Shown here in pieces: positions 43,750-52,692 of a DNA stretch of 64,000 nt; position 1 is the first letter of the stretch; every line of letters begins with the position of its first letter. The stretch covers positions 20,672,001-20,736,000 of the forward strand of contig CP086569.2 of assembly GCA_009914755.4 (NCBI GenBank), in the 5' to 3' direction. The stretch comes from the human T2T-CHM13v2.0 reference genome, Homo sapiens. Made by a program: the position numbers and the translations under genes. The notes under the pieces were generated by a model. It worked only from the letters and a program-made list of their open reading frames with translations, searched no databases and was not told the DNA's origin.

Positions 43750-43916
43750 GACCTGGCATGGTGGTTCATGCCTGTAATCCCAGAACCTTGGGAGGCCGAG
43801 GCACATGGATCATGAGGTCAAAAGATTGAGATTATCCTGGCCAACATGGTGAAACCCCTTCTCTACTAAAAATACAAGAATTAGCTGGGTGTGGTGGCAT
43901 GTGCCTGTAATCCCAG
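43750..43916 (+). mobile_element. Alu SINE, + orientation, 5' portion (left monomer and start of right monomer); the same Alu resumes at 52550 and is split by the provirus
   Basis: gacctggcatggtggttcatgcctgtaatcccagaaccttgggaggccgaggcacatggatcatgaggtcaaaagattgagattatcctggccaacatggtgaaaccccttctctactaaaaatacaagaattagctgggtgtggtggcatgtgcctgtaatcccag, immediately followed by the LTR start tgaggaag. Confidence 0.9.
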
Positions 43917-44426
43917 TGAGGAAGAAAGCTCAAAATCCTAAGGAAATTGAACACTCAAAACAAAAGATTCTTAGCAAAGCAATTTTACTTCTGCACAGAT
44001 GGGTGCCTCCTTGGCTAGTCATGATGAGCGCACACCTGAACAAAGGGGCGTGACAGCCTTTATTTCTGATGCAAGCCCTGCCCCTGTACCCTTTCTCCAT
44101 TGGCTAGGTCTGGGTCATACAATCTCAGCTAATTCCAGTTGGCTAAACATTTGATTTTTTTAGATAAAGTGGGCACGTAAAAGAAAGCAGAGAAGAAAGG
44201 GGAAGGGGTGTCTGTAATAAGCTAGAAAGTTAGAGTCCTCTTTACAAATAAGGAAAGGAATGTGAGCTGGTACTGATAACGCCTGGTACTGTGGTGTGCC
44301 TGGGCATCTAACCAACGCAAAAAGAAAAAAAAAAAGGAGAAAAAAGAAAAAGAGCAGGAGGTACTATGAATTAGAGAATAAAAGATTGATCAGGTTATTT
44401 GAGGAGAAACCACATCATATCCCAGA
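43917..44426 (-). repeat. 3' LTR of the provirus (510 bp)
   Basis: + strand tgaggaagaaagctcaaaatcctaaggaaattgaacactc...gagaaaccacatcatatcccaga. Homologous to 52024-52549; contains minus-strand AATAAA (+ strand tttatt at ~44058-44063). Confidence 0.88.
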
Positions 44427-44450
44427 GCTTCCCTTTCTTCCTTTTTTTTG
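44427..44450 (-). promoter_or_regulatory. Polypurine tract (PPT) of the provirus
   Basis: + strand gcttccctttcttccttttttttg is the reverse complement of caaaaaaaaggaagaaagggaagc, directly adjacent to the 3' LTR boundary on the internal side. Confidence 0.75.
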
Positions 44451-44488
44451 TAACTCTTTCTCCTCAAATCTTTCAGCATAGTTTGGCT

Positions 44489-44862
44489 TCATTGTTCTAC
44501 TTGGTCTTCTAGAAGGAAAAGCTTATTTGAATCAGGGGGAGGAGGATTGTAAGAGGTTTCAGTGAGAGCTGTTTTAGTATGTCTTTTTGTTAATCTTTGG
44601 GCACAGGGTATGATGCAGCATCTTACGAGAATAAGCAATCCCATTCCAATGGCCAGAGAAATGAAGATTGAGGATGTAAGTCCCTTCCATCTACAGAACA
44701 ATTTCCAATGAAATTTGTGAAGGGATCTTTTAGTCCAGAATTTTTGGCTAGCCCATTTGACAGAGCAGTAAGACCCTGTAATGCTTTAGTTATGGTCCTG
44801 CCAGGAGCAGTATCATTAGGGTAGGGATATAAGTACAGCATTGGGTCCTGATCATGACACAA
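44489..44862 (-). pseudogene. Retroviral env transmembrane (TM) subunit remnant (membrane-spanning segment and cytoplasmic tail)
   Basis: Minus ORFs 44623-44862 (..ALQGLTALSNGLAKNSGLKDPFTNFIGNCSVDGRDL..) and 44489-44701 (..WKGLTSSIFISLAIGMGLLILVRCCIIPCAQRLTKRH..) look like the ectodomain-proximal region and hydrophobic anchor. Position just upstream of the PPT/3'LTR fits env. Confidence 0.65.
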
Positions 44863-47800
44863 ACTCCACCTTGTTTTGCTAGTATCATGTCTAATGCTAT
44901 CCTATTTTCCCGGGCCATTTGACTGATGGGTCCTAATTATTCAGCTAGCTATTCCTTTAATAGCATCTCTAGTAGTATTAATAAATCATTGCTGATTGTA
45001 TTGAATGTAATTTATCCAATTCACATTTTTATTTACAGTTAACCACCAGAAGAACATACATTCAAATCCAGCAATTATTTGATTTTGGGGCTTAAATTTA
45101 TTTGGCACTCCTCTTGGGACCCCAATGGCATCTATATAAACATGAGAATTGAAGGACCAATGTGGGGGCCTCTCTTATTTGATGATATTTTGTTCCTACC
45201 CTTTCCGGTTGATGAAATGCCAGGGCAAAAGGGATGGCCAATTGAATTAGAGCACACATTCTACTCCAGTTACTTGGCAGAGCATCTAGTATTGGTCCAC
45301 CACAATACCAGCACACATCCCCTCAAGGATGGCTAAGAACAGTCTGTTGGGTAAGCTCTTAGAAGGGATTAAGCTCACTGCATCCCATTAAGGATACCGG
45401 CAATGCCAAGTTCTCTCCCTGTCGTCACAGACACAAAGGAGAATGGTCATTGGGAGATGGAGGCTGAATGGCCCTTGGGGGCTGACCTGCAGGATGTTGA
45501 ACTTTAGGGAACAGCAGAGAAAAAGCTTGGCGTGATTTGTTGCCCCAGACTGAGGGGTTTTGGAAGAGAGCTACCATACAGCTCATGCCCGGTCAGCTAG
45601 AAGACCATCCAAGTGGAAAGGGGACAATCTGGGCCTCTGGTCTACCATGCACACAAGGGTAACATTCACTGTTGTTTAAAGTGCAGAAGGAATACTTAAT
45701 CCATTCCAGCCAAGCATTTGCATATTGATATCCTGTGTCTACAGCTATAGTTTGCCTTAAGTTTTCTACCTCCACAACCATTACCTTGGTTGGGTCATTT
45801 TGGAGATGGGAGGAGGATGTTGGATTTGCTATACATGGGCAAAGCATTGGGTTCCATGTGTGTCCCGGACTTTGTCTCTGAACTCCTTTATAATTGTTAT
45901 CCAATGTTTTAAATAACGTTAGGGAGAAGATTCCTATAGGGTCCTGTCTTCAATGTCTGCTCCTAACCCATACCATATGAATAGAGACAGCTCTTCGGCC
46001 ATCATCCGGGAATTATTTATAATCAGCAACAAGGAGTTACAGTGGAATAGCTTACAATTTGGTGGGGTGGGACAACAGACTAGTTGGAGTTTTTGTTTCA
46101 GTCCTCGTAACTTATTTGAAGTGGGGGGTTGGCTGTCCACCGTTTGTACTTAGTATTCCACCAAACATCTGCCCAGTCAACTCAGGGACTTTTTAAAGCT
46201 CCATACTTGCTTGATTCTTTGCGGTATGGACATAGATACTTATCAACATGGGATAGCTTCCTTTGAGCTTGCTCATCTCTACACAGGATGACTGAACACG
46301 TGTTGAACTGAAGAGTTAACAGATGAGTAACCTGCATTACACTGATGACAAGATGACCTTCTGTTGAAAAGAAAAAAGAGAATAAACAAGTGATTATTAA
46401 GCTCATTTTAGAGTTAGTTTGGTGGGAGTGGGCCCTGGAGTGACAGTCCATGATTCTGGAGGTGGCAGCGCCTCCTTGACTTGGGTGTGATGAGCCTATC
46501 CTCTTTCTGCTTATAGGTCTTCAGCAACTATCTATCTTGTTTGGCCAGGGTGTAAATTCTCATATACTCATAAACTCAGAGAAAGGCATTGCACATTGCT
46601 TGGGGTCCCCAAAGGGCCCCCTGATGTAATTGAGACAAGACCTCCCTCATGAGAGGTTTTGACAACATCTCCTTTTGATTTGGTAATATGCATTTCCCTT
46701 CTGCATTCTCTTTAGCTGCTATTTTTATCAAGTTCTCTTTTTCAATGGAAGAGAAAATTGGAGTTGCAGTAGGAGAAGGGAGGCATGGAGTTAAATGAAA
46801 AACAGGCATTTTGGAAGAAACAGCAACTTGTTTTGCTGTCTGATCTGCAAGATTATTTCCCTGACTTGTGAAAGACCAGTCCCTTTGGTGCCCTGGGACA
46901 TCTACAATGCTATCACTGCCAGCAATTGGAGATTGTTGAGGACAGGAGTAATCAGTTCTCTGTGAACTACATCTTGGCCTCTACTATTGAAAAAACCCCT
47001 CTCCATTCAAATTTTCCCAAATGTGTGTTCCACCCAAAGGCATACTTAGAGTCAGTATAGATAGTTCCTTCTTGGTTTTGTAAATGTCCTAAAGCTTGGT
47101 TGAGTGCAAACAGTTCACACATTTGGGCAGATCAGTTACTAGGCAGCCTTCCCGATTCTACTTCTTCAAGCATCTCTCCATCAATCACTGAATGCTCATT
47201 ATGTCTTTTCCTTTCAATCACCTGGGATGACCTATATTTGAATAAGTGTTGCCTTGTCTTGAAGGGAGTTTCTCCTAAGTTTGGTTGAACTTTTTTATGG
47301 CAATCAATCAGACCTAAACATGTGTGGTCTCATTTTAAGTTTGGATCCTTTGTTAAAAAGCCTGCTGGATTAAGTGAATTATCAGTAGTTTATATTAAAT
47401 AATCTTTTTTCCAGTAAGAGAGCCTCCTATTTTAAAATTCTTGAGTCAGTGATCCATATCCCTGCTTTCTGATTTAATATCGTTCTAACTTGGTGGGGCA
47501 TGCTTACTGTTAACTTTCCTCCAAATATTAGCTTCCTACTTTCTTTGACTAATACTTCTGTAACTGTGATGGATTGGATACACTGGGGCCATCCATTAGT
47601 GACTGGGTCTAAGACCTTTGACAAGAAGGCCACAGGCTGCCAGCAACCTCCATGTTCTTGGGTGAGCACTCCTAGGCCCACCCAGTTGTTTACATTAATG
47701 AAAAGGTAAAATGGCTTTTCTAGGGAGGGTAGAGCTAGAATGTGGCAGTTATGAACCTCTCTTTTAATCCTTCAATTTGCTGGATTTCCTGGGAAGTCCA

Positions 47801-51990: not shown

Positions 51991-52000
51991 GAATATTGGA

Positions 52001-52019
52001 GCCCCAAAGTTGGGTGCCA
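52001..52019 (-). promoter_or_regulatory. Primer binding site, tRNA-Lys(1,2)-like, 4 nt downstream of the 5' LTR
   Basis: + strand gccccaaagttgggtgcca is the reverse complement of TGGCACCCAACTTTGGGGC. 15/18 identities plus one indel versus the Lys1,2 PBS TGGCGCCCAACGTGGGGC used by betaretroviruses/HERV-K. Confidence 0.65.
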
Positions 52020-52023
52020 GAAG

Positions 52024-52549
52024 TGTTAGGAATAACAGTCAAAATCCTAAGGAAATGGAACACTTGAAAAAACGATTCTTAGCAAAGCAATTTTACTTCT
52101 GTGCAGAGGGGTGTGCCTCCTTGGCCAGTCGCCTTGAGAGCACACCTGAACAAAGGGGCACAAGAGAGCCTTTATTCCTGATGCAAGTCCTGCCTCTGTA
52201 CCCTTTCCCGATTGGCTGGGGTCTGTTCATACAATCTAAACTAACCCTGGTTGGCTACATATTTGATTTTTTTTTTTTTTATAAAGGGGGCACATAAAAG
52301 AAAGCAGAAACGAAAGGGGAAGGGGTGTCTGTAATGAGCTAGAAAGTTAGTCCTCTTTCCAAATAAGGAAAGGAATGTAAGCTGGTACTGATAACGCCTG
52401 GTACTGTGGTGTGCCTGGGCATCTAACAAAGGCAAAAAGGAAAAAAGGAGAAAAAGGAAAAAAAAAGAGGGGAGGTACTAGGGGTACTATGAGTTAAAGA
52501 ATAAAAGATTGATCAAGTTATTTGAAGAGAAACCTTATCATATCCCACA
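52024..52549 (-). repeat. 5' LTR of the provirus (526 bp), containing minus-strand TATA (TATAAAA, + coordinates ~52276-52282) and AATAAA (+ ~52171-52176)
   Basis: + strand tgttaggaataacagtcaaaatcctaaggaaatggaacac...gaaaccttatcatatcccaca. The minus strand starts TGTGGGATATGA (HERV-K-like LTR start TGTGGGG...). TATA to poly-A signal spacing ~100 bp. Confidence 0.88.
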
Positions 52550-52692
52550 CCAGCTACTTGGGAGGCTGAGGAGGGAGAATTTCTTGAACATGGGAGGTGG
52601 AGATGGCAGTGAGCCAAGATCCAGACACTGCACTCCATCCTGGAGACACAGCAAGACTCAGTCTCAAAAAAAAAAAAAAAAAAAAAAAAAAA
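52550..52692 (+). mobile_element. Alu SINE 3' portion (rest of right monomer plus poly-A), continuation of the Alu at 43750-43916
   Basis: ccagctacttgggaggctgaggagggagaatttcttgaacatgggaggtggagatggcagtgagccaagatccagacactgcactccatcctggagacacagcaagactcagtctcaaaaaaaaaaaa... Joining 43916 to 52550 reconstitutes ...cctgtaatcccagctacttgggaggctgagg. Alu TSD agtgggagg / agtgggatg at 43736-43749 and 52693-52701. Confidence 0.9.

What the first reader, a model, noticed from the sequence alone, without database searches (positions are those of the whole stretch)
43750..52692. ERV provirus integrated into an Alu; the Alu halves flank the two LTRs
The Alu left part ends ...cctgtaatcccag at 43916, immediately followed by the LTR start tgagg. 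The other LTR ends ...catatcccaca at 52549, immediately followed by ccagctacttgggaggctgagg, the rest of the Alu. Joining the halves recreates a normal Alu with a short duplicated CCAG/CCCAG at the junctions (the integration TSD). The Alu also has its own TSD (agtgggagg/agtgggatg). This gives a clean relative chronology: Alu first, then retroviral integration. It also places a betaretrovirus-like integration in the primate lineage after Alu amplification. The two LTRs differ at roughly 10-15% of positions by eye, so the provirus is old, yet both LTRs, the PBS and the PPT are still in place (not a solo LTR).
Basis: seen in the sequence. Interest (0 to 1): 0.55.

Follow-up and report, generated by a model that had tools for sequence, protein, structure and literature searches.

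The report
Old gamma-type provirus splitting an Alu
A decayed endogenous retrovirus of the gammaretrovirus-like HERVIP group (not betaretrovirus-like) sits on the minus strand inside an older Alu repeat. This is an ordinary nested-repeat arrangement in a primate genome, and the provirus appears to be catalogued already.

Summary
Two 510/526-bp LTRs (43917-44426, 52024-52549) differ at 13.8% of aligned sites (K2P 15.4%). They are flanked by two parts of one Alu (43750-43916, 52550-52692). The parts join colinearly into an AluSc-like element once a 4-bp duplication (CCAG) is removed. The composite Alu has its own 13-bp target-site duplication (11/13 matches).

The provirus lies on the minus strand and is class I, gammaretrovirus-like:
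- Pfam gives Gag_p30, RVP, RVT_1 and TLV_coat.
- There is one NC zinc knuckle, and no dUTPase or G-patch.
- The RT matches MLV/XMRV RT at 9e-39, against 7e-12 for the entry I take to be HERV-K RT.
- Env carries CWYC, an ENRIALDMILA immunosuppressive motif and CX6CC.
- The duplication is 4 bp, not 6 bp.

HERVIP consensus proteins (Vargiu 2016) match gag, pro, pol and env in order. The Lys-like PBS probably prompted the "beta" call; it is a recorded minor HERVIP variant. The NC motif CYQCGRTGHFKRER is identical to catalogued HERVIP chain 5188 on human chrY.

The element is dead: many stop codons, the integrase core deleted, and an AluY-like insertion in pol. Interest is low.

The parts
43737..43749 (+). 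Left copy of the host Alu's own target-site duplication (AGTGGGAGGTTAG)
   Evidence: Matches 52692-52704 at 11 of 13 positions and abuts the Alu start.
43750..43916 (+). Host Alu, 5' part (consensus positions 1-167), ending ...CCTGTAATCCCAG
   Evidence: Aligns colinearly to the AluSc-like consensus.
43913..43916 (.). Retroviral target-site duplication, left copy (CCAG)
   Evidence: The best Alu join needs exactly 4 bp removed.
43917..44426 (-). 3' LTR of the provirus (510 bp)
   Evidence: Aligns with 52024-52549, p=13.8%.
44427..44449 (-). Polypurine tract (sense strand: AAAAAAAAGGAAGAAAGGGAAGC)
   Evidence: Read from the sequence, directly upstream of the 3' LTR in proviral sense.
44444..46451 (-). 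env remnant. SU carries CWYC. TM carries the ENRIALDMILA immunosuppressive motif, CX6CC and a membrane anchor.
   Evidence: tblastn with the HERVIP env consensus, 57-62% identity over aa 201-706. Pfam TLV_coat E=5.9e-6. Stops and frameshifts.
46340..49251 (-). pol remnant (RT, RNase H, N-terminal integrase). The integrase core is deleted between 46537 and 46510.
   Evidence: tblastn with HERVIP pol: aa 1-885 present, 885-1213 absent. Pfam RVT_1, RT_RNaseH and RNase_H. PDB best hits are MLV/XMRV RT at 9e-39.
47920..48216 (+). Secondary AluY-like insertion inside pol, antisense to the provirus. Own duplication at 47904-47919 and 48217-48233.
   Evidence: blastn with the joined Alu. Sequence and duplication read. 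It falls in the gap of the pol match between 48219 and 47911.
48910..49412 (-). Protease remnant
   Evidence: tblastn with HERVIP pro, 74-75% identity. Pfam RVP E=1.5e-6.
49347..51496 (-). gag remnant: MA, a p12-like region with PPPY, CA, and NC with the single zinc knuckle CYQCGRTGHFKRER starting at 49511 (running down to about 49470)
   Evidence: tblastn with HERVIP gag. Pfam Gag_p30, 37.1 bits against a cut-off of 27.4. Only one C..C....H pattern found.
50647..50968 (.). 63-66 bp tandem repeats inside the proline-rich part of gag
   Evidence: TRF. About 395 bp here correspond to 13 aa of the consensus.
52002..52019 (-). Primer-binding site (sense strand: TGGCACCCAACTTTGGGG), closest to tRNA-Lys(CTT)
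   Evidence: Best of 20 candidate PBS sequences: 2 substitutions and 1 inserted base against TGGCGCCCAACGTGGGGC. That reference PBS is confirmed in Vargiu 2016 Table S6.
52024..52549 (-). 5' LTR of the provirus (526 bp; sense strand TGTGGGATATGA...TTCCTAACA)
52550..52553 (.). Retroviral target-site duplication, right copy (CCAG)
52550..52692 (+). Host Alu, 3' part (consensus positions 164 to the end, plus the poly-A tail)
52692..52704 (+). Right copy of the host Alu's own target-site duplication (AGTGGGATGCTAG)

Best explanation
An AluS-type element (best fit AluSc) retrotransposed into this locus and made a 13-bp duplication. Later a gammaretrovirus-like virus of the HERVIP group (Repbase HERVIP10F/FH, ERV1) integrated in the germ line into the Alu's right arm, in the opposite orientation to the Alu. 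The site is at consensus positions 164-167.

Its integrase made cuts staggered by 4 bp, and repair duplicated CCAG. Both LTRs were identical at integration and have since diverged by about 14-15%. That puts the integration at roughly 30-35 million years ago, in early catarrhines.

The provirus then decayed by neutral processes. It acquired stops and frameshifts in every gene and lost about 1 kb of the integrase core. A tandem-repeat expansion arose in gag, and an AluY-like element inserted in pol. It is now a non-coding fossil.

Shown here: the anatomy, the order of events, the virus class and the group. Inferred: the absolute age and the integrase mechanism, the latter from what is known of retroviral integration.
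For: - LTR pair and divergence.
- Colinear Alu join with a 4-bp overlap.
- 13-bp Alu duplication.
- Minus-strand PBS and PPT.
- Pfam: Gag_p30, RVT_1, RT_RNaseH, RNase_H, RVP and TLV_coat. No dUTPase, G-patch, Gag_p24 or Gag_p10 in any sense frame.
- RT nearest MLV/XMRV at 9e-39, against foamy virus at 1e-13 and 7sr6 at 7e-12.
- CA N-terminal domain nearest MLV, though weakly.
- A single zinc knuckle.
- HERVIP consensus gag, pro, pol and env all match in order on the minus strand, with group E-values down to 1e-158.
- The ISD motif ENRIALDMILA is the one listed as HERVIP10F type, and HERVIP markers are given as 'PBS: P, I, k, c; Znf 1; Gpatch-; DU-'.
- Identical NC motif in catalogued HERVIP chain 5188 on chrY, which RetroTector assigns to genus C.
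- Age: Vargiu's rule of thumb of 2.5 My per % divergence gives about 35 My. LTR10/HERV-I is reported to have entered anthropoids about 30 Mya.
Against: - Amino-acid identity to the HERVIP consensus is only 55-75%, and about 30% in the N-terminal part of SU. This may be a divergent HERVIP subgroup, or a mosaic env.
- The LTR could not be matched to any LTR10 consensus, because none was available. It also lacks the AP-1 motifs described for LTR10A/F.
- The inner Alu's non-CpG divergence (9.2%) is not lower than the per-lineage LTR divergence (about 7%). Absolute dates are therefore soft, and LTR gene conversion or a wrong Alu consensus cannot be excluded.
Confidence: 0.93

Rival explanations
1. 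One reading: a betaretrovirus-like (HERV-K/HML) provirus integrated into the Alu.
For: The PBS is closest to tRNA-Lys(CTT), the primer that gives HERV-K its name. The LTR starts with TGTGGG, as several HERV-K LTRs do (my own recollection).
Against: - No dUTPase, G-patch, Gag_p24 or Gag_p10; Gag_p30 and TLV_coat are found instead.
- One zinc knuckle, not two.
- RT is 27 orders of magnitude closer to MLV/XMRV RT than to 7sr6, which I recall to be HERV-K RT.
- The duplication is 4 bp, not 6 bp.
- All four genes match the HERVIP consensus.
- Vargiu et al. state that PBS usage is an unstable marker, and list 'k' as a minor HERVIP PBS type.
Confidence: 0.02
2. The two Alu pieces are unrelated, independently truncated Alus that happen to flank the provirus. 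Alternatively, the element is a recombinant between two proviruses, so the flanks were never contiguous.
For: Alus are very dense here, with at least 10 other copies in the window. Chance adjacency to an Alu is therefore common.
Against: - The two pieces have the same orientation, and their end points are complementary with exactly a 4-bp overlap.
- There is one poly-A tail.
- One 11/13 duplication pair brackets the composite.
- The subfamily features are S-type on both sides.
- Recombination between proviruses would give non-matching 4-bp flanks.
Confidence: 0.02
3. A mosaic provirus: a HERVIP gag-pol backbone with LTRs, PBS and/or the N-terminal part of env acquired from another class I group by recombination before integration.
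For: - The Lys-like PBS is only a minor variant in HERVIP.
- The N-terminal part of SU is only about 27-34% identical to the HERVIP env consensus.
- The LTR lacks the AP-1 motifs reported for LTR10A/F.
- Vargiu et al. report that mosaic forms and env snatching are common.
Against: - The chain with the identical NC motif is listed under taxorder 10410 (HERVIP) in Vargiu's table.
- SU N-terminal domains are the fastest-evolving part of any retrovirus.
- Several LTR10 subfamilies other than A and F exist.
- No competing family consensus was tested.
Confidence: 0.15

Closest known systems
HERVIP (HERV-IP-T47D / ERV-FTD; Repbase HERVIP10F and HERVIP10FH with LTR10A/F), supergroup HERVIPADP, class I / ERV1
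   Same: - gag, pro, pol and env match the group consensus proteins in order.
- Same ISD motif (ENRIALDMILA).
- One zinc finger; no dUTPase or G-patch.
- The 'k' PBS is recorded as a minor type.
- The NC motif is identical to catalogued chain 5188 on chrY.
   Different: - The LTR subfamily is not identified, and there are no AP-1 motifs.
- The integrase core is deleted.
- There is an extra tandem repeat in gag and an Alu in pol.
- The N-terminal part of SU is divergent.
Murine leukaemia virus and other gammaretroviruses
   Same: - RT at 9e-39 to MLV/XMRV RT.
- Gag_p30 capsid, a PPPY late domain before CA, and a single CCHC.
- Env with CXXC in SU and ISD plus CX6CC in TM.
- A 4-bp target duplication. 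That MLV also makes a 4-bp duplication is my own knowledge.
   Different: - The PBS is Lys-like rather than Pro.
- It is an ancient primate germ-line fossil, not an infectious virus.
HERV-K (HML-1 to HML-10), betaretrovirus-like
   Same: Only the Lys-type PBS and the TG...CA LTR ends, which all retroviruses share.
   Different: All structural genus markers differ (see the membership test).

Membership tests
Class I (gammaretrovirus-like) ERV | Capsid of the Gag_p30 type | tested here: met
   Pfam PF02093, 37.1 bits against a cut-off of 27.4, covering profile positions 1-198 of 201. PDB best hits are MLV CA N-terminal domains, but weak, at E=0.03.
Class I (gammaretrovirus-like) ERV | One zinc knuckle in NC | tested here: met
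   Only one C..C....H pattern in three frames of 49200-50000. Vargiu Table 2 gives one as the major state for class I.
Class I (gammaretrovirus-like) ERV | RT closest to gammaretroviral RT | tested here: met
   MLV/XMRV RT at 9e-39 to 6e-35; the next group (foamy virus) is at 1e-13.
Class I (gammaretrovirus-like) ERV | Gamma-type Env (TLV_coat; CXXC in SU; ISD and CX6CC in TM) | tested here: met
   PF00429 E=5.9e-6, above the cut-off. CWYC, ENRIALDMILAKQGGVC and C-VMIRTQ-CC were read in the translations.
Class I (gammaretrovirus-like) ERV | 4-bp target-site duplication | tested here: met
   The Alu join is best with exactly 4 bp (CCAG) removed. That 4 bp is typical of gamma-type integrases is established knowledge and was not tested here.
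HERVIP group (Vargiu taxorder 10410) | Sequence similarity of gag, pro, pol and env to the group consensus | tested here: met
   tblastn gives 55-75% identity in colinear pieces on the minus strand, with group E-values from 1e-66 to 1e-158. No other family's consensus was run as a competitor.
HERVIP group (Vargiu taxorder 10410) | ISD motif weNRiALDmiLA | tested here: met
   ARENRIALDMILA in the TM remnant. The motif is listed as HERVIP10F type.
HERVIP group (Vargiu taxorder 10410) | LTR of the LTR10 family | not testable with these tools
   No LTR10 consensus could be obtained. Neither LTR has an AP-1 motif, whereas the LTR10A/F consensuses are described as having several.
HERVIP group (Vargiu taxorder 10410) | PBS for tRNA-Pro or tRNA-Ile (minor types: k, c) | tested here: inconclusive
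   The PBS is Lys(CTT)-like, with 2 substitutions and 1 inserted base. This fits only the minor 'k' type.
HERV-K / HML (betaretrovirus-like) | dUTPase and G-patch in pro | tested here: not met
   No hit in any of the three sense frames at E<0.01. Decay could hide them, but the pro region matches HERVIP pro at 75% without room for them.
HERV-K / HML (betaretrovirus-like) | Two zinc knuckles; Gag_p10 and Gag_p24 | tested here: not met
   One knuckle. Gag_p30 only.
HERV-K / HML (betaretrovirus-like) | 6-bp target-site duplication | tested here: not met
   Removing 6 bp gives a worse Alu join than removing 4 bp (score 385 against 395).
HERV-K / HML (betaretrovirus-like) | PBS complementary to tRNA-Lys | tested here: met
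   By itself this is not diagnostic.
Alu (host element) | Dimeric, about 280 bp, colinear with the consensus, poly-A tail, flanking duplication | tested here: met

The most novel reading that the evidence does not exclude
The most novel reading not excluded is that this is a pre-integration recombinant lineage. It would combine a HERVIP gag-pol core with a Lys-type PBS, a non-LTR10A/F LTR and a divergent SU. That would make it a small, undescribed HERVIP-related subgroup rather than a plain HERVIP copy. Even so, it would be a minor refinement of HERV taxonomy.
Probability: 0.12. Interest if true: 0.2.

Novelty: already known. Interest (0 to 1): 0.1.

Why it matters
It matters little beyond annotation. 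Nested repeats such as Alu, then ERV, then Alu give a clean relative time-line. They are routine in primate genomes and are handled automatically by RepeatMasker-type tools.

The useful outcome is a correction. The element is gamma-like HERVIP, not beta-like HERV-K. A Lys-type PBS alone is not a safe guide to retroviral genus. The length of the target duplication (4 bp here) is a cheap independent check.

If the window is the human Y locus catalogued by Vargiu et al., the provirus is a fixed, dead fossil in a non-recombining region. It could serve as a phylogenetic presence/absence marker for catarrhine Y chromosomes.

Tried and rejected
- Translating the whole internal region through the Pfam tool by reference failed, because one frame has 131 stops.
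- I tried to name the LTR subfamily and found nothing. Conserved LTR words gave no relevant hit in the Vargiu consensus files; the only term that occurred, the 9-mer caggtgtgc, fell in other consensuses such as HERVADP. The LTR10A/F consensus table of Ivancevic et al. is not held as text.
- A stitched integrase region gave no Pfam hit. This was later explained by the deletion of pol consensus aa 885-1213.
- I considered a 5-bp (CCCAG) or 6-bp (TCCCAG) duplication with later mutation. Both were rejected: LTR-LTR homology and the canonical TG...CA ends fix the LTR edge at 52549, and the Alu join scores best with 4 bp removed.
- I looked for other copies of this LTR in the window and found none.
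- I looked for CpG-island-like stretches in the window and none passed GC>0.5 with o/e>0.6.

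
Full report
**Observation**

I read both junctions. On the + strand an Alu starts at 43750 and runs to ...GCCTGTAATCCCAG at 43916. At 43917 a new sequence begins with TGAGGAAGAAAGC. At 52024 a very similar sequence begins (TGTTAGGAATAACAG) and runs to ...CATATCCCACA at 52549. It is followed at once by CCAGCTACTTGGGAGGCTGAGG, the rest of an Alu, a long poly-A tail and AGTGGGATGCTAG.

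A global alignment that included the flanks shows the similarity starting and stopping at exactly these points. A MAFFT alignment of 43917-44426 against 52024-52549 gives 437 matches, 70 mismatches (44 transitions, 26 transversions) and 7 gap events. That is p=13.8% and K2P=15.4%. Only 3 of the 70 differences are of the CpG-decay type.

**The Alu**

I joined 43750-43916 to the right part after removing 0, 4, 5 or 6 bases from its start, and aligned each join to four Alu consensus sequences.

- For every consensus the best score came from removing exactly 4 bases (CCAG).
- That alignment has no gap at the junction.
- The best fit is an AluSc-like consensus: 279 aligned positions, 1 gap, 15.4% divergence, 7.9% outside CpG sites.

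The two parts are therefore one Alu, cut between consensus positions 167 and 168, with positions 164-167 present twice.

AGTGGGAGGTTAG (43737-43749) matches AGTGGGATGCTAG (52692-52704) at 11 of 13 positions.

**Orientation and non-coding landmarks**

The provirus lies on the minus strand. In proviral sense:

- The 5' LTR is 52549 down to 52024 (TGTGGGATATGA...TTCCTAACA).
- After four bases comes TGGCACCCAACTTTGGGG.
- Of 20 candidate primer-binding sites, this is closest to tRNA-Lys(CTT), TGGCGCCCAACGTGGGGC, with two substitutions and one inserted base. The reference sequence is confirmed in Table S6 of Vargiu et al. 2016.
- Directly upstream of the 3' LTR (44426 down to 43917) lies a polypurine tract, AAAAAAAAGGAAGAAAGGGAAGC.

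**Virus type**

- *Pfam.* Scans of the three sense frames with stops masked gave Gag_p30 (37.1 bits, cut-off 27.4), RVT_1, RT_RNaseH, RNase_H and a weak zf-CCHC. There was no dUTPase, G-patch, Gag_p24 or Gag_p10.
- *Stitched pro and env.* Stitched protease and env translations gave RVP and TLV_coat, both above their cut-offs.
- *RT.* A 211-residue stitched RT hits MLV/XMRV reverse transcriptases at 9e-39 to 6e-35. The next groups are foamy virus RT at 1e-13 and entry 7sr6 at 7e-12. I recall 7sr6 to be HERV-K RT; this is my own knowledge, as the tool names it only 'Polymerase'.
- *Capsid.* The capsid N-terminal region hits MLV capsid, weakly.
- *Nucleocapsid.* There is a single zinc knuckle, CYQCGRTGHFKRER.
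- *Env.* The remnant carries CWYC in SU. TM carries ENRIALDMILAKQGGVC followed by C-x6-CC.
- *Duplication length.* It is 4 bp. From established knowledge, gammaretroviral integrases such as MLV make 4-bp duplications, while MMTV and HERV-K make 6 bp.

All of these markers are gammaretrovirus-like (class I, ERV1). Only the Lys-like PBS points to 'K'. Vargiu et al. state that PBS usage is an unstable marker.

**Family**

The supplementary files of Vargiu et al. 2016 (PMC4724089) list the motif weNRiALDmiLA as the HERVIP10F type of immunosuppressive domain. They give the HERVIP markers as 'PBS: P, I, k, c; Znf: 1; Gpatch-; DU-'.

I took the HERVIP consensus Gag, Pro, Pol and Env proteins from their file 3 and ran tblastn against the window. 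All four match on the minus strand, in the order expected:

| Gene | Window coordinates | Notes |
|---|---|---|
| gag | 51496-49347 | |
| pro | 49412-48910 | 74-75% identity |
| pol | 49251-46340 | |
| env | 46451-44444 | 57-62% identity over aa 201-706 |

The same table shows three lesions:

- The pol match breaks between 48219 and 47911, where an Alu sits.
- Pol consensus residues 885-1213, the integrase core, have no counterpart between 46537 and 46510.
- About 395 bp of gag (51029-50634) correspond to only 13 consensus residues.

Every matching piece but one (the 42-residue pro piece, 49412-49287) contains stop codons. The longest open frame in the provirus is 163 codons, in RT.

**Already catalogued?**

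Vargiu's Table S1 lists chain 5188. It is taxorder 10410 (HERVIP), RetroTector genus 'C', on the minus strand at hg19 chrY:21979757-21971406, with LTR divergence 11.49. Its NC zinc finger is 'cyqcgrtghfkrer'.

- That 14-residue string is identical to the one here, including the terminal R that replaces the last cysteine. Other HERVIP chains in the same table read differently (cyqcgktghfkrec, hykcgrtghfkrec).
- The spacing from pol end to env end in that chain is 1885 bp. Here it is 1896 bp.

The window is therefore probably that human Y-chromosome locus, or an ape orthologue. This is an inference; I could not align the window to a genome.

**Chronology and age**

The order is fixed by nesting: host AluS-type element, then the provirus, then the inner Alu.

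The inner Alu (47920-48216, + strand) fits an AluY-like consensus best. Its own duplication is AATTTCCTGAATCCTG / AATTTCCTGAGTTCCTG.

For absolute age, 13.8% multiplied by the rough 2.5 My per % used by Vargiu et al. gives about 35 My. K2P of 0.154 with 2.3-5e-9 substitutions per site per year gives 15-34 My. Ivancevic et al. state that LTR10/HERV-I entered the anthropoid genome about 30 million years ago.

The three elements show similar per-lineage non-CpG divergence: host Alu 7.9%, LTRs about 7%, inner Alu 9.2%. The three events were thus probably close in time, and the dates are soft. If the locus is Y-linked, the higher male mutation rate would make these ages overestimates.

**Mechanism**

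The anatomy is shown directly: a 4-bp direct repeat of target DNA immediately outside TG...CA LTR ends. The rest is inferred from established retrovirology. Integrase joins the viral 3' ends to target phosphates staggered by 4 bp, and gap repair duplicates the four bases.

Nothing suggests a present function. No gene is intact. Neither LTR carries the AP-1 motifs that make LTR10A/F copies enhancers.

**What remains open**

- The LTR subfamily could not be named, because no LTR10 consensus was reachable.
- The N-terminal part of SU is only about 30% identical to the HERVIP consensus.
- Together with the minor-type PBS, this leaves a modest chance (about 0.12-0.15) that the element belongs to a recombinant or divergent HERVIP-related subgroup.
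- No other family's consensus was run as a competitor.

**Verdict**

The chronology is right, and the 'betaretrovirus-like' label is wrong. The element is an ordinary, dead, almost certainly already catalogued HERVIP provirus nested in an Alu. Interest is low.

Noticed in passing
window 47920-48216 (+), duplication at 47904-47919 and 48217-48233: A second Alu, best fit AluY-like, is inserted inside pol of the provirus and antisense to it. It has a 16-17 bp target duplication. This gives a three-layer nesting: AluS, then HERVIP, then AluY.
   Followed up: yes
window 50647-50968: Tandem repeats of 63-66 bp (about 5 units, 77-80% matches) lie in the proline-rich, p12-like part of gag, just upstream of a PPPY motif. 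This stretch is about 350 bp longer than in the HERVIP gag consensus. It is open in all three frames, as expected for a repeat.
   Followed up: partly
window 46510-46537: About 1 kb is deleted: HERVIP pol consensus residues 885-1213, the integrase catalytic core and C-terminal domain, have no counterpart.
   Followed up: partly
window 16468-17910 (+), 30421-30963 (-), 38430-38972 (+): Long open frames that read like LINE-1 ORF2 pieces. One is a 480-aa stretch with the FADDM reverse-transcriptase motif. The other two are 180-aa stretches resembling the endonuclease end. I judged this by eye only.
   Followed up: no
window 1223-1516, 5186-5488, 7643-7954, 12278-12576, 19705-19910, 20652-20845, 24507-24796, 26273-26428, 56702-57004: At least nine further Alu copies lie in both orientations, 70-80% identical to the joined host Alu. 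Alu density is high, so chance adjacency of an ERV to an Alu is not rare in itself.
   Followed up: no
whole window; provirus 43917-52549: The NC zinc-finger string CYQCGRTGHFKRER is identical to that of RetroTector chain 5188 (HERVIP, hg19 chrY:21971406-21979757) in Vargiu et al. 2016 Table S1. The window is therefore probably from human Yq11.22 or an ape orthologue.
   Followed up: partly
window 36571-37035 (-), within the relatively GC-rich 36-38 kb stretch: A 154-codon open frame lies in a locally GC-richer segment (GC 0.44). No window passed a simple CpG-island test. Its nature is unknown.
   Followed up: no
window 25821-25988 and 12700-12743: Two dinucleotide microsatellites: (TA)n of about 84 units, imperfect, and (AT)22, perfect.
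   Followed up: no
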